From contig JAUYKM010000009.1 of assembly GCA_030699125.1 (NCBI GenBank), positions 291,365-355,364 on the forward strand: 64,000 nt of DNA, given 5' to 3'. The notes under the pieces were generated by a model, which saw only the letters and a program-made list of their open reading frames with translations, made no database searches and was not told the origin of the DNA. Position 1 is the first letter of the stretch, and each line of letters begins with the position of its first letter. The DNA comes from Candidatus Daviesbacteria bacterium. GTDB lineage: Bacteria; Patescibacteriota; Microgenomatia; Daviesbacterales; UBA10151. Below, piece by piece: positions 1,290-11,041 of this stretch. Position numbers and translations under genes: made by a program.

Positions 1290-1360
1290 GCGGGATTAGT
1301 ATAGTGGTAATACGCTACCTTCCCAAGGTAGAGCCGCCGGTCCGATTCCGGTATCCCGCT
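1290..1360 (+). tRNA. tRNA-Gly (anticodon CCC)
   Basis: Cloverleaf read directly from sequence: acceptor GCGGGAT/ATCCCGC, D-arm GTAT-AGTGGTAA-TAC, anticodon stem CTACC/GGTAG with loop TTCCCAA, T-arm with TCCGATT loop. CCA is not encoded. Confidence 0.8.
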
Positions 1361-2855
1361 CTGAATGGGATTTCGCAGGGTTGAAAATTTTCTGACTCTG
1401 CGCGGGTGGGGGCGCGCAGAGTGCTGCAAAGCCCTGATTGTAGCTGACTTCAAGGTGCCGATTAGTCAAAAAGTAGTTCGAGCCGACAGTTTTTGACAAG
1501 AATGCTAATTCTTGGCTTGTATTTTTTGCGCGCGCGATTTTTGCGCACGAAAGTGCGCTACCAATGAAGTTTTTGAACGGTTCGAGCCGACTCGAACCTT
1601 CTGTTTGAATTTTGGTAATTTCCTCATTTTTTCTTAACTTTTCTTCAAAAAGTTCGTTCTTTTTATTCTTGTAAGTTTGAGCATCAACAACACCATCTAA
1701 GTAACTATCAAGTAATATATTTAATTTTTGATCCAGCAGTTGTATTTCTTCTACTAACCTCTTTAGGTTTTGATCTTTATTTTGTTTTTCTAAAAGCTCA
1801 TCCCTTTCCAGCCATTTATACCAATCATCCGCCCACTTTTCAGGCAGAGCTGCATCTGAGACAATCTTTGTTATTTGCGACTCTAATTCAACTTCTGTGA
1901 TCGGTTTTTGAGAGCAAGAGCCAAGTTTTTTAGTACAACTGTAGTAAGTATATTCAACTTTCACTCCCAAGGATTTAACTAATTTAAATTTCTTTTCTCC
2001 AGTCACACTTGCACCGCATTCTCCACACCTTACCAGCCCTAAATACGAGAGATTATGCTTATTATATTTAGGCCTAGATATTATCTTGAACTGTTTTTGT
2101 ACTCGATCAAACAGCTGCTTAGAAATGAACAACTTATGTGTTCCATCATAATATTCTCCTCCATAATAGATAATTCCAATGTAGAATTTATTACTTAAAG
2201 CATTTTTAAGCCTGTCTATTTTTAAAGGATTTCCAAATTTATCGCTAAATCCATTTTTATGAAGAAACAAACAGATATCAGTAAATGTTTTATCACCATC
2301 TGCAAAATACTCAAAAGCTTTTCTTAAAATCCTGGATTTTTCAGGATCAATCTCTATAGTTCCCAATTTTTCATTATTTATATATCCCCAAGGAGCTTTG
2401 GCGGGCAAGACACCATTCCTTAGCTTTTGTCTTAAACCTCTTTTAACATTCTCACTTAAGTTGTCTATGTAATATTTAGACTGACCAAAGGAAATATTTA
2501 ACATAAACTTTCCTTGAGGGGTATTTTCAAACCAAGAGGTAGGAAATTTTAAATCTAACAACTGACCAGTATCTAAAAGATAAATTATTTTTCCTCCATC
2601 AATTGAATTTCTAGCTAATCTATCCGGGTGCCAAGAGATAATACCTTGTGCTTGCCCTTTTTCAACTAACTGTAAAAGTCTTTCAAACTGTTTTCTACCC
2701 GGAGTTTTGGCAGTCTTTGCTTCTTCAATAAATTCAACTATCTCCAAGCCCTCACGTTGGGCAAATTCGGTTAGTTCATCAACTTGTGCCTCTATGGAGA
2801 GAATTTGTTTATCAGCCTCATCTGTTGATTTTCTGCAGTATGCTATATATTTCAT
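1296..2855 (-). CDS. large serine recombinase (resolvase catalytic domain + recombinase domain + zinc ribbon + coiled coil)
   Basis: N-terminus MKYIAYCRKSTDEADKQILSIEAQ carries the resolvase-type catalytic Ser motif. A CGECG..C..C zinc-ribbon and a long C-terminal coiled coil are present. The last ~65 codons of the ORF run through IR-A and antisense to tRNA-Gly, so the true stop is uncertain. Confidence 0.8.
   Translation of the reverse strand: MKYIAYCRKSTDEADKQILSIEAQVDELTEFAQREGLEIVEFIEEAKTAKTPGRKQFERLLQLVEKGQAQGIISWHPDRLARNSIDGGKIIYLLDTGQLLDLKFPTSWFENTPQGKFMLNISFGQSKYYIDNLSENVKRGLRQKLRNGVLPAKAPWGYINNEKLGTIEIDPEKSRILRKAFEYFADGDKTFTDICLFLHKNGFSDKFGNPLKIDRLKNALSNKFYIGIIYYGGEYYDGTHKLFISKQLFDRVQKQFKIISRPKYNKHNLSYLGLVRCGECGASVTGEKKFKLVKSLGVKVEYTYYSCTKKLGSCSQKPITEVELESQITKIVSDAALPEKWADDWYKWLERDELLEKQNKDQNLKRLVEEIQLLDQKLNILLDSYLDGVVDAQTYKNKKNELFEEKLRKNEEITKIQTEGSSRLEPFKNFIGSALSCAKIARAKNTSQELAFLSKTVGSNYFLTNRHLEVSYNQGFAALCAPPPAQSQKIFNPAKSHSERDTGIGPAALPWEGSVLPLY
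1358..1460. repeat. Inverted repeat A, left arm (103 bp; perfect inverted copy of 2960-3062)
   Basis: The reverse complement of 1358-1460 equals 2960-3062 with no mismatch. The arm abuts and overlaps the last 3 nt of tRNA-Gly and contains a 9-bp internal hairpin, CTCTGCGCG..CGCGCAGAG. Confidence 0.9.
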
Positions 2856-2959: not shown

Positions 2960-3062
2960 CGGCACCTTGAAGTCAGCTACAATCAGGGCTTTGCAGCACT
3001 CTGCGCGCCCCCACCCGCGCAGAGTCAGAAAATTTTCAACCCTGCGAAATCCCATTCAGAGC
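2960..3062. repeat. Inverted repeat A, right arm (A')
   Basis: Perfect reverse-complement copy of 1358-1460. It is directly contiguous with IR-B, overlapping it by 5 nt. Confidence 0.9.
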
Positions 3063-3163
3063 TCGTTTACGAAAGCGCTCGAACTCAATTCCAATCGACG
3101 CATTAGTTGTCGGCGCCCAGCTCACGTTCGGTCCCAACCTTTTTATTTAATCCCTACCTTTTC
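3058..3163. repeat. Inverted repeat B, left arm (106 bp)
   Basis: The reverse complement of 10899-11004 matches 3058-3163 with 3 mismatches. Confidence 0.85.
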
Positions 3164-3256
3164 CGAAGCTCTGAAACTGGAGGCTCGAACATCCCGCACC
3201 AACTGGTGCGTGATACAAAAAACGCAAAAATTTTAAAGAACTTTTCGCACCCTAAA

Positions 3257-4705
3257 TTATGTACTTATCCAAAATGTATTTATTACACTATCTCCGATAA
3301 ACTCAGCAAGCTGTCCTGTAGGTTTTTGTTCCCCGATACACTTACCAACTCTTACTGTCCAATTAGGACCAGTAGGATCTAATATTTCAGACAATGGATC
3401 AATGACTTCTTTTATATCCTCATTTTTCCTGTCCCAAGTGTCACAGGTGGAAAGCCTATCACTTTTTTTACCATGTCTTTTACTGGAAGCAGCTTCTTTA
3501 ATTTTTGTTTTTGCAGTCTCCCAATCTAAACTTAATTTTTTCAGTACCTCATCTGTTATAAAAAGATTTTCTGACTCTCTACAAGATAGTTTTAAATACT
3601 TTATGTGTTTTTGAGGATTTTGAGATGTATTCTGTGGATGAGTAGCATCGCCATCTATTAAAGCGTATCCAGCGGCGTTCGTAGATGTGCTCCTCATACT
3701 CTCAAAAAGTTTTTCAAGAGTTTTTTGGTATTCATGTATTTCCTGACCATCACAGGGAATAGCTGCTAATTTAACTTTGTGATGTCTAGGGACTTGGCTC
3801 CATATTTTATAGTCATCGTCTCCTTCAACTAACATTAAAGGTGCTCCAAAAAGGGGACCCATTAACGCATGCCCACCTAAACAGGTAGCTAATTCTTGGA
3901 GGGCACTTTCAAACTTAATAGCTTTTTGTTCTTGGACAGAATTATTTAAGTATATTGCGCTCGTATTTTCTCCACCATGGTGTCCTAGAGCAGCTAAAAG
4001 GGTAGTGCTATGAGTAGCAATAATTATTTGTGCGTTATACTTTTCCATTAGCTCAACTAAAAATCCTGCTAAATGTTGTTGAAGATCTGGGTGGAGATGG
4101 GTATCCGGTTCATCAATAAGAAGTAATCTTGTGCTTTGATTCTCAAGTTGCCAAATAGAACATATAGTTAGTAAATCTAAACCTAATGCTAACATTTCAG
4201 TTTCTCCACTACTAAGCTGATCCTTGCTTGAAATTACTTCATCTGTTGATACTCTTTTTAATTCAAAAAAGGGATTTTCTGGTTTTAATTTGAAACTAAA
4301 ATCTGGAAAGAGCTTAATCATTAACTCCGCAATGTCTTTAACTGGTGAATCTACCTTACCTTCCTCAAAATAATAACCCCTTTTGGTAAGATAGGTGTTA
4401 ATTCTTGAGATAACCCTTTCTCTAAACTGAAGTGATAAATTACTTTGTCTATTGGAAGCTCTTGTGGAGGCTGCGACTTCTTGGAGAGCAAAATCAGAGT
4501 TAAATTGTAGTTCACCCGCTCTTTCTGGAGATGTTAAATGACGAGCGTTATGGTCAGCATTGAGTAAAGCTCTTAATAATGCACTTTTGCCTGAACCATT
4601 TCTACCGAAGAGGACAGTTATATCAGTTAGATTTTTCAGAATCCACTTATCCCCACCTAAATGGGGTGGTCTTTGTGCTTCTAATTGGTCAAAATATAAA
4701 GACAT
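3257..4705 (-). CDS. OLD-family ATP-dependent nuclease (ABC-type ATPase N-domain + C-terminal Toprim)
   Basis: Walker A GRNGSGKS, ABC signature LSSGETEML, Walker B LLLIDEPDTHLHP, H-loop IIATHS. C-terminal Toprim motif 1 LMLVEGDDD and motif 2 ALIDGDATH. Only 482 aa, compact relative to P2 Old or GajA. Confidence 0.7.
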   Translation of the reverse strand: MSLYFDQLEAQRPPHLGGDKWILKNLTDITVLFGRNGSGKSALLRALLNADHNARHLTSPERAGELQFNSDFALQEVAASTRASNRQSNLSLQFRERVISRINTYLTKRGYYFEEGKVDSPVKDIAELMIKLFPDFSFKLKPENPFFELKRVSTDEVISSKDQLSSGETEMLALGLDLLTICSIWQLENQSTRLLLIDEPDTHLHPDLQQHLAGFLVELMEKYNAQIIIATHSTTLLAALGHHGGENTSAIYLNNSVQEQKAIKFESALQELATCLGGHALMGPLFGAPLMLVEGDDDYKIWSQVPRHHKVKLAAIPCDGQEIHEYQKTLEKLFESMRSTSTNAAGYALIDGDATHPQNTSQNPQKHIKYLKLSCRESENLFITDEVLKKLSLDWETAKTKIKEAASSKRHGKKSDRLSTCDTWDRKNEDIKEVIDPLSEILDPTGPNWTVRVGKCIGEQKPTGQLAEFIGDSVINTFWIST

Positions 4706-4707
4706 AC

Positions 4708-5211
4708 TTATTTTTTTCTAGTTTCTTCTAAAATATTTCTTACAATAGCTGAAGTATTAGAATTTTGTTTAATCGCTTCTTCCTTAAGCCATTTTGCTTG
4801 GCTTTTTGTAACTACAAGATTTAAACGTGTCAAAGAGTCAGATATGAATTGGGGATTTCCTAACTCTATTCCGTGCGCACTAGTGGCTTTTAATCCGTTT
4901 TCTCTGGGTACTGTATTTCCGGATTCTTGAAATCTTTTCTGGATAATATCTAGGGCAAATCTGCTAGCCCCTTCATCGCTAAATTTGTATTTATTATCTT
5001 CAAGATACTCTTGTGACACCCAAACCTCATATTCTTTTATGAGCCCAGCCGCTGTTTTTGGTAGAGTAGAATAAATCTTTAAAATTACCCTGTACCCGTC
5101 AACTCCTGGTCCAATTTTTCCCACGTAGTCAATCTTTACTTCAACACCTTCTGTTAAAATTATTGTTTGGTTATCAGCTGTCATAAAAATAAGTATAACA
5201 TACTTGCGCAA
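4708..5211 (-). CDS. hypothetical protein with C-terminal ribbon-helix-helix (CopG/Arc-like) DNA-binding motif
   Basis: C-terminus VVTKSQAKWLKEEAIKQNSNTSAIVRNILEE fits the RHH beta-strand/helix/helix pattern. The stop lies 3 nt upstream of the OLD gene start, suggesting translational coupling. Confidence 0.45.
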   Translation of the reverse strand: MRKYVILIFMTADNQTIILTEGVEVKIDYVGKIGPGVDGYRVILKIYSTLPKTAAGLIKEYEVWVSQEYLEDNKYKFSDEGASRFALDIIQKRFQESGNTVPRENGLKATSAHGIELGNPQFISDSLTRLNLVVTKSQAKWLKEEAIKQNSNTSAIVRNILEETRKK

Positions 5212-5325: not shown

Positions 5326-5886
5326 TCATGAGGCCATTAATCTGTCCCACTCCCTTTGCATATCTAAAATAACTCTTTCCTCTTGAGTAATTGTATTTCC
5401 TGTTTCTAATTTATTAGCTATTTGTGAAACTCGATCTATAACGGTTACAAATAAAGATTGCATAGCATGTCTGAAATCATTCTCATGATCTAAGGCCCTA
5501 TTATGTGCTACTTCATGGACAAATGCACTTATTGCTTCAGTAAATTGGGTATTAAATAATGACTCGTGCATTCCGATAGCTTTTTGGCCTAGATTAATAC
5601 CTTTACTCCCAGTACCATTGTATAAAAATAAGTCATTTGGTAAAGCAACACCCGTAGCAAATTGGGTATAAAGCCTTAGTAATCCTAATTGAGCTAGTTG
5701 ACGCTCATTCGGACTCAAAACAATTTCAAAATCGTCAACTTCATCCTCTGCAGGGTTCATTCGCTCGACGATATTTTTTAATTTACCTCTCAAAGCACCT
5801 AATATCTGATCTTCTGGAGATTGTTCTCTTGTGACATCAACGCTAGCAATTTCTGCTTGGTTTTGTTCGTTTATCAATTCAAGCAA
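5326..5886 (-). CDS. HExxH zinc-metallopeptidase-like protein (ImmA/IrrE- or SprT-like size class)
   Basis: Motif FVHEVAHNRALDHEND gives HExxH plus a downstream acidic ligand candidate. 186 aa, co-directional with and upstream of the RHH and OLD genes. Confidence 0.4.
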   Translation of the reverse strand: MLELINEQNQAEIASVDVTREQSPEDQILGALRGKLKNIVERMNPAEDEVDDFEIVLSPNERQLAQLGLLRLYTQFATGVALPNDLFLYNGTGSKGINLGQKAIGMHESLFNTQFTEAISAFVHEVAHNRALDHENDFRHAMQSLFVTVIDRVSQIANKLETGNTITQEERVILDMQREWDRLMAS

Positions 5887-5964: not shown

Positions 5965-8397
5965 CTAAATTGCGCTTTGCCCAGTAGGAGCTTCATGTTT
6001 AATTTCAGGAACTAATTCTTCTAATTTATTTACTGCTTCAACAATGCCTGGTAATTGAGCTTCCATTTGTGCTACTCGTGCTTTTTCAGCATCCGACATA
6101 GATGCTTCTTTTTGGACAATACTACCTTTCCCTTCAATCTCTGGTGCTTCAGGTTGTGATACTGGTACACGACCAAATTCCTGTTTTAGTTGCTCCCTTT
6201 GTTGAATAATAAGTCTTTCTTGATCTGATAGTTCAGTGGGATTTTTTCTCATTGCTGCTTGATAAAGCTGTTCTTGTTCAGAAGTCCATGCTTTTACTTC
6301 AATAGCTCTGATAATATCTACTTCAACTACTCCTTTGCTTCCATTTTCAGTTGGTAGCGTAATAACCTCACCAATTGGTGCTGTACCTTCTCGAAATCCT
6401 CCTAGTGGAAGTGGCTGACCTGGCTCTATTTGACTTCTAGCCCTGCGAAATGCTTCTTGAAAAGATTGAAAGTATGAGTCGTCTAATTCTACTTCTACAA
6501 ATAACCCTTCTTCGCTCTCGTTTTTAACATTACGTGCGAGTAGAACATTCTCTTGAGTTACAGAATCATAATCTAATCCAAATGTAGTAACAAACTCACC
6601 TTGAGATGTAAAAATTTTCTTAAAAAGTCTATTTTCTAATCCATATGCTGCAATACCGCGTAATAAATATAAAAGTTTTTGATCATCTTCTTTAGGTTTA
6701 ATTAGAGCATGAAAAAGAAGATCTCTTGGAACTTCTCCTCTTAGTCTTAATCTGATTGTGTTAGGATTGCCTTCTCTCTGTTCAACTGCAATAACTTGAG
6801 AAGATAACCGATCACTTATAAGACGAATGAATCCTGCTGGATCTTTGACATCAGGAAAATCTTCATGAGCAACTTCCATTCCATATTCTTGAGCAAACTG
6901 TTCTTTTCTATATTGAGGAATTGTAGGTGCTTCGTTACTAGCTGCTTCAACTGTACTGAGCTTACTACTCGCCTTGGGCATTCCTATAGATTCCATATAG
7001 GAAGGGCAAACAACATAGCCTTGTTTTTCTAATTCTTTGACTTGATTATCACTTACACCACGATCCCAAGCTATGTAATTCTTTCCCTCAAAAAGTTGTT
7101 GATACCCTCTTTTGTCATATCCCTTATAGGGTAATTGCTTTGCTAATTTTTCAATTACTACAAACGCTCCTTGCCTGTCGAAGCTATATCCAGAATCAAC
7201 ATGTCCTGCCCACAAGAATTCAGAACGTCTAATTTGTTCAACAAGATCATCTTTTGACATTGCTCCTACCATTTCATCAAGATAGCGGCCAAGATCAAAA
7301 GGACTTACAGGTGGTCTATCTATACTCATTCTATATTTCAGATTATTTAGTTGAATTGTTACTTGCTCTGGTCCCACCCAATAATCTTCAGCAGTATCAC
7401 CCTTATCTTTAAAATTCATAACTTGGCCATTAATAAATAAGCGACCTTTAGTGGGTTCTAAACCTTCAGATTTTGGAAGCCATTTTATTGCCCCAAACCT
7501 ATTTTGGTAATCCATATTTTGTAAATAAGGATTTTCAGCAGATACTCCTAAAGTTGGAACTTGTTGAAGTGCTCTTATCACTTCTGCATTATCAGTTTCT
7601 ATGATATAGGTATTGCGACCGGTTCGTTGTGCTTCTTGCATATCAGCAAGCAACCAATCATGTTTTACTATATGAGCAGGGTTTTGACCATGCAAACTCT
7701 CCCATTCTCTATTAACATCAGCCGCTTTTGCTAATCTATAATCTACTGTCCATCCTTCCCCCTGGATCTGGAACTTCTGTACTCCAAAGTCTCGCATAAA
7801 ACGAATAGCAGTCTGTTTAAGCCCAATTCCGTTTCCCCCTGCAGTATTCATGTTCGCTGGTTTTTCAGAATGAGGACTTAAAACTCCTGTGGGATCTTCG
7901 AAAGGCCAGTTTCCTTCTATACGAAAACGTTTACCGCCACCTGGTAGATCTTCAGCTATAAATCTTACTCCGTTCAAAGTACCTGGTGCTTGAGGATTAT
8001 GATCTACAAAATTTTGTACAAGTTCCCTAGTTAGCCATGCAGAATTGTACTCATCTCTTGACTTATCTAAGAAGCTGTCAGTTGCTATTGGCTGCGTATC
8101 AACGCCGCGTTCTCTAAAGAAATATTGTAATAACTTTTGATCAGTTATAACTCCCTCTATCTTTGCTCCATTACCATTTTCTGCAGTTAGAGCAGGAGGA
8201 GATTCAGGTTCGGCCGGTGGCTGTGTTAGTTGAGGTGTTTGCTCGGTTGGTTCACCTGCAACATTAGGATTTGCAGTCGGTTCGCCTCTCTTACCAAAAA
8301 ATCTATCCCTTAATCCTGCAAATCTTGACTTTCCCCCTGCTGGTTCTGGATTTTCCGTAGTCATAGGTTCTGACATATTATATATCCATATTAGCAT
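5965..8397 (-). CDS. large hypothetical protein with N-terminal GHKL (Bergerat-fold) ATPase-like motifs
   Basis: N-box-like RELVQNFVDH (ExxxNxxD), G1-like EDLPGGGKRF and G2-like AGGNGIGLKQ, in the order expected for histidine-kinase/MORC/Hsp90-type ATPases. Pro/Ala-rich N-terminal linker. 810 aa with atypical (GC-rich) composition. Confidence 0.4.
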   Translation of the reverse strand: MLIWIYNMSEPMTTENPEPAGGKSRFAGLRDRFFGKRGEPTANPNVAGEPTEQTPQLTQPPAEPESPPALTAENGNGAKIEGVITDQKLLQYFFRERGVDTQPIATDSFLDKSRDEYNSAWLTRELVQNFVDHNPQAPGTLNGVRFIAEDLPGGGKRFRIEGNWPFEDPTGVLSPHSEKPANMNTAGGNGIGLKQTAIRFMRDFGVQKFQIQGEGWTVDYRLAKAADVNREWESLHGQNPAHIVKHDWLLADMQEAQRTGRNTYIIETDNAEVIRALQQVPTLGVSAENPYLQNMDYQNRFGAIKWLPKSEGLEPTKGRLFINGQVMNFKDKGDTAEDYWVGPEQVTIQLNNLKYRMSIDRPPVSPFDLGRYLDEMVGAMSKDDLVEQIRRSEFLWAGHVDSGYSFDRQGAFVVIEKLAKQLPYKGYDKRGYQQLFEGKNYIAWDRGVSDNQVKELEKQGYVVCPSYMESIGMPKASSKLSTVEAASNEAPTIPQYRKEQFAQEYGMEVAHEDFPDVKDPAGFIRLISDRLSSQVIAVEQREGNPNTIRLRLRGEVPRDLLFHALIKPKEDDQKLLYLLRGIAAYGLENRLFKKIFTSQGEFVTTFGLDYDSVTQENVLLARNVKNESEEGLFVEVELDDSYFQSFQEAFRRARSQIEPGQPLPLGGFREGTAPIGEVITLPTENGSKGVVEVDIIRAIEVKAWTSEQEQLYQAAMRKNPTELSDQERLIIQQREQLKQEFGRVPVSQPEAPEIEGKGSIVQKEASMSDAEKARVAQMEAQLPGIVEAVNKLEELVPEIKHEAPTGQSAI

Positions 8398-9336: not shown

Positions 9337-9621
9337 CTAGTGGGTCTTCTTAGCTATAACTTTTTGTAATCCACCCTTACCGTATTTAATAATCTGTCCA
9401 ATTTTAGAAACAGTTGAGGTAGAAGTCCCAACTTTTCCTGCTATCTCATCATAGGTTTTTTCTTCTAAAATTAACTTTGCTATTTTTAACCTTTGGGCTA
9501 AATCCAAAATTTCTTCTTCAGTCAAAAGATCATCAATAAAATTAGCTAAATCTTTAGATTTTAATTTTCTTAAGGTATCAACTAATAATTTTCTATCTTT
9601 GTCTAAGTTAAGCTTTGTCAT
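9337..9621 (-). CDS. TrpR-like YerC/YecD family DNA-binding protein
   Basis: 94 aa. The segment TYDEIAGKVGTSTSTVSKIGQIIKYG matches the YerC/YecD Trp-repressor-like HTH family. Confidence 0.55.
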   Translation of the reverse strand: MTKLNLDKDRKLLVDTLRKLKSKDLANFIDDLLTEEEILDLAQRLKIAKLILEEKTYDEIAGKVGTSTSTVSKIGQIIKYGKGGLQKVIAKKTH

Positions 9622-9668: not shown

Positions 9669-10295
9669 TTAAGTCCTGTAAACAGTTGCCTTACCTTTTT
9701 TCTCTGATTTCAGTTTACCATTTTTAACTAACTCTGATAAATAACTGCTTGCTGAACTTTGAGAAACTTGTAAAAGGTCTCTTACATCTTGATTGTTAAT
9801 TTCTTTTTTCCTTGCTAACTCAACTATTTGATTTAAGTTTTCTTCTCTCCTCTGTTTTCTTTTTTCATTTGCCTTTTGTAAAAGCTCGGAAACTTTTTGA
9901 TCTAACTTTTTTTCTATTTCTTCCTCAATATTAACTTTTGGAACTTCTGGAGCTTTTTCTTCTTTGGGTTGAGGTTTTTCTTTCTTAATTTCTGGGTCAG
10001 GTTTTTGTTCCTCTTGTGGTTTAGGACTTTCTGTTTCTTTCTCCCTTGGTTTTTCTTCCGGAATTTCAGAAACTGGGGGAGATTCGGGGGTCTGGGGTGA
10101 TTGGGGAGGAGTTGGGGAAGGTTCAGGTTCAACTGTAGGAGTTTCAACAACGGGTGGAGTTTCTACTGTTGGTTCTTCTATTTTAACTTCTTCTTCAACT
10201 TTCGGTTGTGGAACTTCCTCTGGAGTTTTCTCTTCTTCGGGCTTAGGTTCTGGCGATGGGGTTTGATCGGTGGGTTGGTTTACATCATCTGCCAT
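9669..10295 (-). CDS. winged-helix DNA-binding protein with Pro/Glu/Lys-rich low-complexity N-terminal region
   Basis: N-terminal ~140 aa are PEPK-rich repeats. C-terminus NLNQIVELARKKEINNQDVRDLLQVSQSSASSYLSELVKNGKL...KATVYR is wHTH-like. Confidence 0.45.
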   Translation of the reverse strand: MADDVNQPTDQTPSPEPKPEEEKTPEEVPQPKVEEEVKIEEPTVETPPVVETPTVEPEPSPTPPQSPQTPESPPVSEIPEEKPREKETESPKPQEEQKPDPEIKKEKPQPKEEKAPEVPKVNIEEEIEKKLDQKVSELLQKANEKRKQRREENLNQIVELARKKEINNQDVRDLLQVSQSSASSYLSELVKNGKLKSEKKGKATVYRT

Positions 10296-10299
10296 GATT

Positions 10300-10898
10300 T
10301 CAGTCTAGCACAGAATCGGCCAAAATGGTGGAATCTGGCCGATTATCTCCCAGAGGTTGGAAGGAAGCGGTTCCGCCGCCCCCGCTCACTTCAGGATAAT
10401 TTCCCAAAAAGGAGGGCAGCACCTTAAAAGAATCTTTCGGAATTTTTAAAAAACTTTCTTGGGTGCTGCCCGACCATCGCGAGAGCCGAGAAAAATAATT
10501 TCGGAGTTTCAAATTACTCGGCTCGAGCCATCGGGAGTCCTCGCGAGCGAAGCTCTCGAGAGCAAGCGAGCGGTATGGAAACAGAAAAGGGTAAAAATTG
10601 CGGCGGGGGCGAAAAGGAATTACCCCCGCAACGGCAGGAGGAACATATACAGATAAAAGATTACCAGAGACTGTAAAGAATAAATCGAAGACTATGATAT
10701 CGGCGAGTCGCCCCCTAGTGGCGACCTCTCGCCCAAAAGCGGGGGTGCCGCTTCCATTATTTTGGGTGGGTGGGTGATGGGAATTTAGAAAGCCTTTAGG
10801 ACTTTTATTTTTTCTGTCTTTTCTTGTCCCGCTTGCGGGACTATAATATAAAAATCGCGCGCATTTATTGTGATTTGCAAAAAATACAAAGAGCAAGA
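10300..10898. other. GC-rich, hairpin-dense non-coding region (candidate large structured RNA or recombination/regulatory region)
   Basis: Numerous perfect stems: AATCGGCCA..TGGCCGATT, GGCAGCACC..GGTGCTGCC, GAGCCGAG..CTCGGCTC, GCGGGGG..CCCCCGC, GGCGAGTCGCC..GGCGACCTCTCGCC, GTCCCGCTTGCGGGAC. ORFs in this stretch are Arg/Gly/Pro-rich and implausible as proteins. Confidence 0.35.
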
Positions 10899-11004
10899 GA
10901 AAAGGTAGGGATTAAAATAAAAGGTTGGGAACGAACGTGAGCTGGGCGCCGACAACTAATGCGTCGATTGGAATTGAGTTCGAGCGCTTTCGTAAACGAG
11001 CTCT
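10899..11004. repeat. Inverted repeat B, right arm (B')
   Basis: Reverse-complement copy of 3058-3163 with 3 mismatches in 106 bp. Confidence 0.85.
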
Positions 11005-11041
11005 CAGTGAATTTTATGGCTCTAAAGAGATATTTAGTGTA

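What the first reader, a model, noticed from the sequence alone, without database searches (positions are those of the whole stretch)
3257..4705. Unusually compact OLD-family nuclease (482 aa) with both Toprim motifs intact
Read from the translation: Walker A GRNGSGKS, ABC signature LSSGETEML, Walker B LLLIDEPDTHLHP, H-loop ATHS. The C-terminal 200 aa carry Toprim motif 1 (LMLVEGDDD) and motif 2 (ALIDGDATH). Class 1 and class 2 OLD proteins are typically 550-600 aa. A 482-aa version suggests a minimised dimerisation or insert region, which would be of interest for structure-function work and fits the genome-streamlined host.
Basis: partly seen in the sequence, partly recalled or inferred. Interest (0 to 1): 0.55.

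Follow-up and report, generated by a model that had tools for sequence, protein, structure and literature searches.

The report
Compact ABC-ATPase/Toprim defence-type nuclease gene
The gene is real and encodes a small ATP-driven nuclease related to known anti-phage proteins (P2 Old, PARIS), but its small size is normal for a large, widespread, unstudied family and has nothing to do with the tiny genome of its host.

Summary
It is an N-terminal ABC ATPase fused to a C-terminal Toprim plus helical domain (AF2 pLDDT 90). It is homologous to P2 Old. The 104-aa length difference from Old lies entirely between Walker A and Walker B, so the "minimised insert" idea holds.

Three parts of the interpretation do not hold:
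- It is not a canonical OLD. It has no PF20469 hit, and profile comparison places it nearer the fused ABC–DUF4435 ("merged PARIS", AriAB) proteins (99.1%, E 6e-19) than P2 Old (96%, E 2e-9). It passes neither family's own model.
- About 480 aa is the norm for this family. It has more than 700 protein clusters and at least 559 hits in GTDB species genomes, across many bacterial phyla, archaea and E. coli. The size is therefore not host streamlining.
- Merged-PARIS proteins have an equally short insert.

The gene has no conserved partner. Its only recurrent neighbour is a large serine recombinase. Here it is cargo of a ~9.6-kb island at tRNA-Gly in a Candidatus Daviesbacteria MAG.

Most likely it is a single-gene, ATP-regulated abortive-infection nuclease of unknown substrate: a new member of a known kind, of modest interest.

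The parts
3257..4705 (-). Whole ORF, 482 aa (stop codon 3257-3259). NCBI MDP3973678.1, named 'AAA family ATPase', from a Candidatus Daviesbacteria MAG.
3920..4705 (-). ABC ATPase domain, aa 1-262 (Pfam AAA_21 75.9 bits, AAA_15 67.7 bits, SMC_N)
4583..4606 (-). Walker A GRNGSGKS (K40 invariant)
4301..4531 (-). Short helical insert between the P-loop helix and the signature half of the ATPase (aa 59-135). This is the region about 100 aa shorter than in P2 Old.
4202..4216 (-). ABC signature LSSGE (aa 164-168)
4106..4126 (-). Walker B LLLIDEP (D198/E199 invariant)
4007..4018 (-). H-loop ATHS (H232 invariant)
3848..3883 (-). Family-specific, nearly invariant linker motif CLGGHALMGPLF (aa 275-286) just before Toprim strand 1. 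Model confidence is lower here (pLDDT ~62-64). Function unknown.
   Evidence: CLGGH[AV]LMG served as the family-specific search pattern
3563..3847 (-). Toprim core, aa 287-381: strand-helix-strand-helix-strand-strand carrying E294-x3-D298, D351-x-D353 and E377-x-E379-N380
3812..3838 (-). Toprim motif 1, LMLVEGDDD (aa 290-298)
3647..3661 (-). Toprim motif 2, LIDGD (DxD, aa 351-353)
3563..3583 (-). Third acidic motif CRESENL (aa 375-381). It aligns with the EVENLF motif of DUF4435 proteins.
3260..3562 (-). C-terminal helical bundle, aa 382-482 (invariant W395, K432, W449, R452, W479)
4708..5211 (-). Upstream 167-aa ORF. Its stop codon lies 2 nt before the target ATG, so it is probably co-transcribed. 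No family match, and not conserved next to homologues, so it is not a system partner.
1296..2855 (-). Large serine recombinase (Resolvase + Recombinase + Zn_ribbon_recom), the only recurrent neighbour of this gene family. The ORF runs through the att core into tRNA-Gly.
1290..1361 (+). tRNA-Gly(ccc), the integration target of the island that carries the gene
1358..1460 (.). attL-like site: core GCTCTGAATG plus the P' arm. 103/103 identical to the reverse complement of 2960-3062.
2960..3172 (.). Internal, inverted attP-like site (P' arm + core + P arm), lying between the recombinase gene and the 3' end of the target gene
10890..11008 (.). attR-like site: P arm (110/119 identical to the reverse complement of 3054-3172) plus core GCTCTCAGTG. 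Right border of the island.

Best explanation
The gene encodes a stand-alone, single-chain ABC-ATPase/Toprim nuclease. It belongs to a large, unnamed family within the OLD/PARIS superfamily and is carried here as cargo of a small serine-recombinase island at tRNA-Gly.

Proposed mechanism (inferred by homology, not shown):
1. The minimal ABC head binds ATP and dimerises head-to-head, using Walker A K40, the signature LSSGE, Walker B D198/E199 and H232. It acts as the sensor or regulator.
2. The C-terminal Toprim domain is the effector. E294/D298, D351/D353 and E377/E379 would hold two metal ions for phosphodiester cleavage.
3. In uninfected cells an oligomeric or ATP-bound state keeps the nuclease closed.
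4. A phage-derived cue (a protein or an aberrant nucleic acid) changes the ATPase state and opens the Toprim site.
5. The nuclease then cuts an essential nucleic acid and aborts the infection. The substrate could be tRNA, as for AriB and (by a 2026 preprint) P2 Old, or DNA, as for GajA and TsOLD.

What is shown here: the domain architecture, the conserved catalytic residues, the homology relationships, the single-gene organisation and the mobile-element context. What is inferred: the defence role, the regulation and the substrate.
For: - Architecture and intact catalytic motifs.
- Confident model (pLDDT 90, pTM 0.78) with an ABC fold followed by a Toprim-type alternating strand/helix core (four strands) plus helical bundle.
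- Full-length structural matches to the Eco8 OLD effector, GajA and TsOLD over both domains.
- The C-terminal domain alone matches only the Xanthomonas campestris OLD (XccOLD) C-terminal region (E 6e-4) and AriB (E 6e-3).
- Profile-profile homology to bona fide merged AriAB (99.1%, E 6e-19, 383 columns spanning the ATPase, Toprim and part of the helical domain) and to the P2 Old family (96.2%, E 2e-9).
- The acidic pattern E-x3-D ... D-x-D ... E matches AriB E26/D30/D88/E90/E122 (PMC11464382).
- No conserved partner gene in 55 loci.
- Typical defence/MGE contexts: a Mu-like prophage, beside an MmeI-type restriction-modification (RM) gene and a transposase, and next to serine recombinases.
- 45-59% identity across bacterial phyla and archaea implies horizontal spread.
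- Patchy presence in E. coli (28 of 5426 genomes) in a small variable island with an integrase fragment.
- Related single-chain ABC-Toprim proteins (HEC-04/IbfA) are experimentally validated defences that need both the Walker A and the Toprim residues.
Against: - No member of this family has been tested. No trigger, substrate or oligomeric state is known.
- It fails the curated models of both nearest families: PF20469 is absent and PF14491 scores 13.2 bits against a cut-off of 27. The C-terminal profile finds no solved structure by sequence.
- TM-scores of the domain-level structural matches are low (0.38-0.41).
- A covalent fusion cannot use the PARIS release mechanism. The short insert lacks the OLD dimerisation domain. 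Regulation may therefore differ from both models.
- The defence context is suggestive, not statistical: most neighbours are unrelated genes.
Confidence: 0.6

Rival explanations
1. It is simply a canonical Class 1 OLD nuclease (P2 Old / TsOLD type) that has lost part of its dimerisation insert, and it works as those do.
For: - Single gene without a partner.
- hhalign 96% to the P2 Old family.
- Spacing almost identical to P2 Old outside the insert: H-loop to Toprim E 62 vs 66 aa, E to DxD 57 vs 55, DxD to end 129 vs 131.
- The best structural match of the C-terminal domain is an OLD C-terminal region.
Against: - PF20469 is found in nearly all listed P2 Old relatives (119 of 120) and in none of 120 members of this family.
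- PADLOC Old scores 48.6 bits on a partial match, against 712 bits for P2 Old itself.
- The C-terminal profile against the P2 Old C-terminus aligns only 36 columns (E 0.039). Against a DUF4435 C-terminus it aligns 144 columns (E 2.5e-4).
- The whole-protein profile is ten orders of magnitude closer to merged AriAB.
Confidence: 0.15
2. It is a merged PARIS system (AriAB fusion). It would sense anti-restriction proteins such as Ocr and cleave tRNA, as the two-gene PARIS does.
For: - The best PADLOC hit is AriAB PDLC02981 (93 bits, E 4.7e-27, aa 78-402).
- The C-terminus alone hits only AriAB/AriB models.
- hhalign 99.1% to a family that scores 378 bits on AriAB PDLC02982.
- AAA_21/AAA_15 score above the Pfam cut-offs.
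- The acidic pattern is AriB-like.
- By the published detection rule for fusions (score thresholds 80 and 20, PMC9122126), automatic tools may already label it PARIS.
Against: - DUF4435 scores 13.2 bits against the cut-off of 27.
- It matches only the middle of the AriAB profile (positions 218-541 of 694).
- Identity to a true merged AriAB is only 23%.
- The ATPase is ~250 aa, against 464 aa for AriA with its coiled-coil inserts and hexamer interfaces.
- A fused nuclease cannot be released.
- Even the merged forms of PARIS have not been shown to respond to Ocr or to cut tRNA.
Confidence: 0.2
3. It serves the mobile element rather than the host. It would be a toxin-like addiction or stabilisation module, or a DNA-processing accessory of the serine-recombinase element.
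For: - A large serine recombinase lies immediately downstream and convergent (within about 60 nt of the stop codon, slightly overlapping in L029) in five loci from different phyla, and nearby in the window and L062.
- Resolvase/Recombinase are the most frequent neighbour Pfam families.
- In the window the gene sits inside an att-bounded island.
Against: - Only about 8 of 55 loci have the recombinase. Other members sit in prophages, RM islands or ordinary chromosomal contexts.
- Defence genes commonly hitch-hike on such elements, so the association does not distinguish the two roles.
Confidence: 0.05

Closest known systems
Merged PARIS / fused ABC-DUF4435 proteins (AriAB; e.g. Campylobacter plasmid protein WP_052800755.1, 502 aa)
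   Same: - Single chain of about 500 aa with a minimal AAA_21/AAA_15 ABC head (Walker A to Walker B 145-160 aa).
- Toprim with VEG..D, DxD and E-x-ENLF motifs, followed by a helical C-terminal domain.
- hhalign 99.1%, E 6e-19 over 383 columns.
   Different: - Only 23% identity.
- The Pfam DUF4435 model does not reach its cut-off (13 vs 27 bits).
- Only a partial match to one AriAB profile, 93 bits, against 378 bits for a true member on its own profile.
- It has its own invariant CLGGHxLMGPLF linker motif and a different C-terminal helical domain.
Two-gene PARIS (AriA + AriB, E. coli B185; PDB 8ux9)
   Same: - An ABC ATPase is paired with a Toprim + helical-bundle nuclease.
- The acidic residue pattern is equivalent to AriB E26/D30/D88/E90/E122.
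- AriB is the second-best structural match of the C-terminal domain.
   Different: - AriA is a 464-aa hexamer-forming ATPase with coiled-coil inserts that sequesters and then releases a separate AriB.
- Here the ATPase is about 250 aa and is covalently fused, so release is impossible.
Class 1 OLD nucleases (P2 Old, 586 aa; TsOLD, PDB 6p74)
   Same: - Single-gene ABC ATPase + C-terminal Toprim.
- Same spacing from the H-loop to the C-terminus.
- hhalign 96%.
- Carried on prophages and other mobile elements.
   Different: - 104 aa shorter, all of it in the Walker A to Walker B insert that forms the OLD dimerisation domain.
- No PF20469 match.
- Only a partial match to the PADLOC Old model.
HEC-04 / IbfA (518-aa ABC ATPase-Toprim fusion, validated anti-phage defence)
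   Same: - Single-gene ABC-Toprim fusion of similar size.
- Defence needs the Walker A lysine and the Toprim E/DxD residues (K62; E319, D375, D377). Their spacing is within 3 aa of K40, E294, D351, D353 here.
   Different: - No detectable sequence relationship. IncI1 plasmids, one of which (pUA1135) carries ibfA, are not hit by tblastn with this protein or with a 518-aa distant relative.
- No HEC-04 model appears among the PADLOC hits to the C-terminal domain.

Membership tests
OLD family nucleases (Class 1) | N-terminal ABC ATPase with Walker A, signature, Walker B and H-loop | tested here: met
   all four motifs are present and invariant. AAA_21, AAA_15 and SMC_N score above their Pfam cut-offs.
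OLD family nucleases (Class 1) | C-terminal Toprim domain with conserved Glu and DxD | tested here: met
   E294 and D351/D353 are invariant. The model has a Toprim-type fold. The best structural match is the XccOLD C-terminal region.
OLD family nucleases (Class 1) | Recognised by the OLD-specific models (Pfam PF20469 OLD-like_TOPRIM; PADLOC Old over full length) | tested here: not met
   No PF20469 hit even at E<=10, and none in 120 relatives. Nearly all listed P2 Old relatives (119 of 120) have it. PADLOC Old covers aa 187-303 only, at 48.6 bits, against 712 bits for P2 Old.
OLD family nucleases (Class 1) | Dimerisation domain inserted in the ATPase | tested here: inconclusive
   The insert is about 75 aa of four short helices. 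Walker A to Walker B is 160 aa, against 264 aa in P2 Old. Whether the remnant still dimerises cannot be told from a monomer model.
OLD family nucleases (Class 1) | Single gene, with no conserved helicase, RT or other partner | tested here: met
   No neighbour family is shared by more than 8 of 55 loci, and that one is a serine recombinase. No UvrD-like or RT partner.
OLD family nucleases (Class 1) | Catalytic lysine in the helical region (BpOLD K562) needed for DNA cleavage | tested here: inconclusive
   An invariant K432 exists in the helical domain. Its equivalence could not be established because no residue-level structural superposition was available.
PARIS (AriA/AriB, including merged AriAB) | AAA_15 or AAA_21 ABC ATPase above the Pfam cut-offs (the detection rule of PMC9122126) | tested here: met
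   AAA_21 scores 75.9 bits (cut-off 27) and AAA_15 67.7 bits (cut-off 32.1).
PARIS (AriA/AriB, including merged AriAB) | DUF4435 (PF14491) at 27 bits or more | tested here: not met
   13.2 bits, E 0.077 on the isolated C-terminus. No relative carries PF14491 in the precomputed annotation. A true merged AriAB scores 59.7 bits.
PARIS (AriA/AriB, including merged AriAB) | Homology to bona fide merged AriAB across both domains | tested here: met
   hhalign 99.1%, E 6e-19, 383 columns. PADLOC AriAB PDLC02981 scores 93 bits. The C-terminus alone hits only AriAB/AriB models.
PARIS (AriA/AriB, including merged AriAB) | AriB-type acidic set (E26, D30, D88, E90, E122) | tested here: met
   E294-x3-D298, D351-x-D353 and E377/E379 are all invariant or >=90% conserved. 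The AriB residues are from PMC11464382.
PARIS (AriA/AriB, including merged AriAB) | Hexameric AriA scaffold that sequesters and releases AriB on binding Ocr; tRNA cleavage | not testable with these tools
   This needs biochemistry. The fused chain and the ~250-aa ATPase argue against an identical mechanism.
Gabija GajA (Class 2/4 OLD) | Adjacent UvrD/PcrA-like helicase GajB | tested here: not met
   No helicase lies next to the gene in the window, and none recurs among the nearest neighbours scanned in about 40 loci.
Retron type I-B effector (Class 3 OLD) | Adjacent retron reverse transcriptase and ncRNA | tested here: not met
   No RT or retron ncRNA in the window near the gene. The RT in L001 belongs to a DGR (bAvd + RVT_1) 5 kb away.
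HEC-04 / IbfA | Sequence similarity to the validated protein or model | tested here: not met
   tblastn against 72,556 plasmids gives no IncI1 hits. No HEC-04 model appears among the C-terminal PADLOC hits at E<=10. The HEC-04 sequence itself was not available.

The most novel reading that the evidence does not exclude
This is the founding example of an unnamed, pan-prokaryotic (bacteria and archaea) family of minimal single-chain ABC-Toprim immunity nucleases. The family is distinct from both OLD and PARIS. It has its own invariant CLGGHxLMGPLF regulatory linker. It repeatedly travels as a two-gene unit with a large serine recombinase whose att site lies between the two convergent genes. If that is right, it would be the smallest natural ABC-Toprim defence module and a tractable model for how the ATPase gates the nuclease.
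Probability: 0.4. Interest if true: 0.45.

Novelty: new member of a known kind. Interest (0 to 1): 0.3.

Why it matters
ABC-ATPase/Toprim proteins (Old, Gabija, PARIS, retron effectors, HEC-04) are among the most common anti-phage modules, yet how the ATPase controls the nuclease is still being worked out on large multimeric assemblies. This family keeps every catalytic residue in about 480 aa, with almost no insert in the ATPase. It occurs in organisms from CPR bacteria to archaea, and a distant ~25%-identical relative of the same architecture (489 aa) occurs in E. coli, a natural host in which it could be tested directly. It is missed or only half-recognised by current Pfam, NCBIfam and PADLOC models (NCBI calls it 'AAA family ATPase'), so defence-system censuses probably under-count it or mislabel it as PARIS. 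The practical gains would be a better annotation model and a compact subject for structure-function work. It is not a conceptual surprise.

Tried and rejected
- **Truncated pseudogene:** rejected. Homologues cover 95-100% of the query and all invariant residues are present.
- **Compaction due to a streamlined host:** rejected. Members have the same length in large-genome bacteria, archaea and E. coli.
- **Upstream 167-aa ORF as a partner (antitoxin or regulator):** rejected. It has no family hit even at E<=5 and no homologue next to other members.
- **Identity with IbfA/HEC-04:** not supported. The 518-aa relatives P0194 and P0257 looked promising (DGD at 375-377 in P0257), but their Walker A lysine and Toprim Glu positions differ from those published, and no IncI1 plasmid is hit.
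- **Sequence profile of the C-terminal domain against PDB sequences:** nothing found.
- **HMMER search of the C-terminal profile against 1.84 billion representatives:** 296 clusters, almost all with the same ~480-520-aa architecture or fragments of it. Among the 150 clusters listed, none looked like a separate stand-alone Toprim family.
- **Viral structure library:** only generic ABC ATPases.
- **Krishnan et al. 2020 ABC ATPase classification:** not held, so I could not check whether the clade has a name there.
- **Empty tRNA-Gly site and attP junction in metagenome contigs:** no exact matches.
- **Rfam on the GC-rich 10300-10890 region:** nothing.
Full report
**1. The observation**

One search lists an ATG-initiated ORF at 3257..4705 on the minus strand, 482 aa.
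- Walker A GRNGSGKS (aa 34-41)
- ABC signature LSSGE (aa 164-168)
- Walker B LLLIDEP (aa 194-200)
- H-loop ATHS (aa 230-233)
- LMLVEGDDD (aa 290-298)
- LIDGD (aa 349-353)

The ORF is not a chance reading frame. The homologue search gave 724 proteins at E<=1e-3, and the listed ones cover 95-100% of the query. In a 43-sequence alignment K40, S165/G167/E168, D198/E199, H232, E294, D296, D297, D351 and D353 are invariant. The gene is full length relative to its relatives. The exact protein is in NCBI as MDP3973678.1, 'AAA family ATPase', from a Candidatus Daviesbacteria MAG contig of 360 kb. The host is therefore indeed a CPR (Patescibacteria) bacterium.

**2. What the protein is**

Pfam recognises only the N-terminal ABC ATPase: AAA_21 at 75.9 bits, AAA_15 at 67.7 bits, plus SMC_N and ABC_tran. 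An AlphaFold2 model built on the family alignment is confident (mean pLDDT 90, pTM 0.78). It shows an ABC head (aa 1-262) with a short four-helix insert (aa ~59-135), then a linker. After that comes a core of four strands alternating with helices (aa 287-381), and finally a helical bundle to the C-terminus.

Foldseek with the whole model finds the retron Eco8 OLD effector, GajA and TsOLD aligned over both domains, alongside PtuA, Rad50 and SMC heads. A separate model of aa 250-482 (pLDDT 87.6) has only four convincing matches: three entries of the Xanthomonas campestris OLD C-terminal region (E 6e-4 to 1.5e-3) and AriB of PARIS (E 5.7e-3). The TM-scores are modest, 0.26-0.41. The C-terminal domain is therefore a divergent Toprim plus helical domain of the OLD/AriB kind.

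**3. OLD or PARIS?**

Several results argue against a canonical OLD:
- Neither this protein nor any of its 120 listed relatives carries PF20469 (OLD-like_TOPRIM) or PF14491 (DUF4435). Nearly all listed relatives of P2 Old carry PF20469 (119 of 120), and every listed relative but one of a Campylobacter plasmid ABC-DUF4435 protein carries PF14491.
- The isolated C-terminus gives only sub-threshold hits: DUF3226 (14.8 bits), DUF4435 (13.2 bits) and, in PADLOC, AriAB/AriB (E 5e-4 to 3e-3). Its profile finds no PDB sequence.
- The full protein's best PADLOC hit is the merged-PARIS model AriAB PDLC02981 (93 bits, aa 78-402). The Old model matches only aa 187-303. For calibration, P2 Old scores 712 bits on Old, and the Campylobacter protein scores 378 bits on AriAB PDLC02982.

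Direct comparisons point the same way:
- BLASTP to the Campylobacter protein aligns VLFIEGKN with LMLVEGDD, IIDRD with LIDGD and EVENLFL with ESENLFI.
- The C-terminal profile aligns 144 columns with the DUF4435 C-terminus (E 2.5e-4), but only 36 columns with the P2 Old C-terminus (E 0.039).
- Family against family, hhalign gives 99.1%, E 6e-19, 383 columns for the merged-AriAB family. For the P2 Old family it gives 96.2%, E 2e-9, 226 columns.

The conserved acidic residues follow the pattern E-x3-D ... D-x-D ... E reported for AriB (E26, D30, D88, E90, E122; PMC11464382). My reading is that this is a distinct family within the ABC-Toprim superfamily. It is homologous to both OLD and PARIS and is nearest to the fused ABC-DUF4435 proteins, but it is a core member of neither.

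**4. Where the compactness comes from**

The table compares motif spacing with P2 Old (586 aa):

| Segment | This protein | P2 Old |
|---|---|---|
| Walker A to Walker B | 160 aa | 264 aa |
| H-loop to Toprim Glu | 62 aa | 66 aa |
| Toprim Glu to DxD | 57 aa | 55 aa |
| DxD to C-terminus | 129 aa | 131 aa |

The whole 104-aa difference therefore lies in the ABC insert, which in OLD proteins holds the dimerisation domain (PMC10568477).

The compactness is not a peculiarity of this gene or host, however:
- Family members are uniformly ~470-500 aa.
- They occur in Patescibacteria, Gamma- and Alphaproteobacteria, Terriglobia, Chloroflexota, Planctomycetota, Nitrospirales (4.1-Mb chromosome), Bacteroidota, Halobacteriales, Nitrosopumilales and Thermoplasmatota. 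There are at least 559 confirmed matches in one-genome-per-species GTDB.
- A distant 25%-identical relative of 489 aa (WP_085458947.1) sits between yfgI and guaA in 28 of 5426 complete E. coli genomes.
- The bona fide merged AriAB protein has an even shorter Walker A to Walker B distance, 145 aa.

**5. Genomic context**

I extracted ORFs around 55 family members and clustered them. No partner gene is conserved. The only recurrent neighbour (8 loci) is a large serine recombinase. In five loci from different phyla it lies immediately downstream and convergent, within about 60 nt of the stop codon and slightly overlapping in L029. A Pfam census of 146 nearest neighbours likewise gave Resolvase (6) and Recombinase (5) at the top, then Phage_integrase, ResIII, methylases and PD-(D/E)XK nucleases, each in 2-3 loci. 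There was no UvrD-like helicase and no reverse transcriptase. Individual loci lie beside a Mu-like prophage, an MmeI-type RM gene with a transposase, and a serine recombinase near a DGR. This is the pattern of a single-gene, horizontally mobile defence-type gene.

In the window, the 167-aa ORF whose stop codon lies 2 nt upstream of the target ATG has no family and no counterpart elsewhere.

**6. The island in the window**

The target lies in a ~9.6-kb segment bounded by att-like sites:

| Site | Coordinates | Composition |
|---|---|---|
| A (attL-like) | 1358-1460 | 3' end of tRNA-Gly(ccc), core GCTCTGAATG, then a 93-nt arm that encodes the recombinase C-terminus |
| C (attR-like) | 10890-11008 | a ~109-nt arm, core GCTCTCAGTG, then chromosome |
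| B (attP-like, inverted) | 2960-3172 | left part 103/103 identical to the reverse complement of A; right part 110/119 identical to the reverse complement of C |

B lies between the recombinase gene (1296..2855, minus strand) and the 3' end of the target. Flipping the segment between the A and B cores would put the recombinase convergent with the target, as in the other loci. It would also give the recombinase a different 14-residue tail (513 aa, ending at 3106). I could not explain why an inverted attP is present inside an integrated element. Exact-match searches for the empty site and for the attP junction in metagenome contigs found nothing. An independent Logan contig carrying the identical gene ends 40 nt beyond the gene's stop codon, about 45 nt short of this repeat.

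**7. Mechanism**

By homology, the most likely function is an ATP-regulated abortive-infection nuclease. The ABC head would act as sensor and the two-metal Toprim site as effector.

Experimental anchors in relatives:
- PARIS AriB cleaves tRNA after release from AriA (PMC11464382).
- A 2026 preprint reports that P2 Old is a tetramer that opens to an active tRNase.
- TsOLD and GajA cut DNA (PMC10568477).
- The single-chain HEC-04 needs both its Walker A and its Toprim residues for defence.

HEC-04/IbfA itself is not detectably related in sequence. The fusion excludes a release mechanism, and the insert is too small for an OLD-type dimerisation domain. Regulation is therefore probably by conformational change within an oligomer, and the invariant CLGGHxLMGPLF linker (aa 275-286) is a candidate element in it. 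The substrate, RNA or DNA, is open. An invariant K432 might or might not correspond to the OLD catalytic lysine that AriB lacks (PMC10802264).

**8. Verdict**

It is a new, uncharacterised member of a known kind, of modest interest (0.3). Its main value is as an annotation gap and as a compact model for ABC-Toprim regulation.

Noticed in passing
window 1358-1460, 2960-3172, 10890-11008: There are three att-like sites around a ~9.6-kb island at tRNA-Gly(ccc): attL, attR and an internal inverted attP. The recombinase gene is flanked by perfectly identical 103-nt inverted repeats. The cargo block is flanked by 92%-identical ~119-nt inverted repeats. This suggests invertible segments or a composite element, and remains unexplained.
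   Followed up: partly
window 1296-2855 (minus strand): The large serine recombinase ORF reads through the att core into the tRNA-Gly gene. Its last ~20 residues therefore depend on which site it abuts: 519 aa as assembled, 513 aa with a different tail if the segment is flipped. This exact 519-aa sequence is not in the protein collection.
   Followed up: partly
window 10300-10890: A GC-rich (~42%) stretch with no believable ORF lies at the upstream end of the island's minus-strand gene block. It folds much better than shuffled controls (z -5.2 on the minus strand, -3.8 on the plus strand) and has no Rfam match at E<=1. It may be a large structured RNA.
   Followed up: partly
window 5326-5886 and 5965-8397 (minus strand): Two further cargo genes of the island have no family. 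One is a 186-aa protein with an HEVAH (HExxH) motif and only sub-threshold metallopeptidase hits. The other is an 810-aa protein with no Pfam, NCBIfam or PADLOC match. By eye, the 810-aa protein has N-terminal GHKL-ATPase-like motifs (not tested).
   Followed up: no
L029 5657-5684 and 7720-7747: In a Deltaproteobacteria MAG, 28-nt direct repeats (96% identical) bracket the homologous ABC-Toprim gene. The second copy lies inside the 3' end of the convergent serine recombinase gene. This echoes the window, where the att site overlaps the recombinase C-terminus.
   Followed up: no
L008 6046-8790 (E. coli NZ_CP062824.1): The distant E. coli homologue (WP_085458947.1, 489 aa) sits in a small variable island between yfgI and guaA. 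The island also holds an integrase-core pseudogene and an orphan 'response regulator' whose N-terminal half looked hydrophobic by eye (possibly membrane-spanning; not tested). It is present in 28 of 5426 complete genomes.
   Followed up: partly
P0247: A 1153-aa protein embeds this ABC-Toprim module (aa ~540-1010) between a long unrelated N-terminal region and a C-terminal tail that looks ankyrin-like by eye. It is an unusual fusion of the family.
   Followed up: no
L001 14535-15503: A diversity-generating retroelement (bAvd + RVT_1) lies ~5 kb from the Patescibacteria homologue P0010 and its adjacent serine recombinase.
   Followed up: no
window 9669-10295 (minus strand): A 208-aa protein has a long Pro/Glu/Lys-rich low-complexity N-terminal region and a C-terminal winged-helix-like segment. 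It lies next to a Trp-repressor-family gene (9337-9621). Both are inside the island.
   Followed up: no
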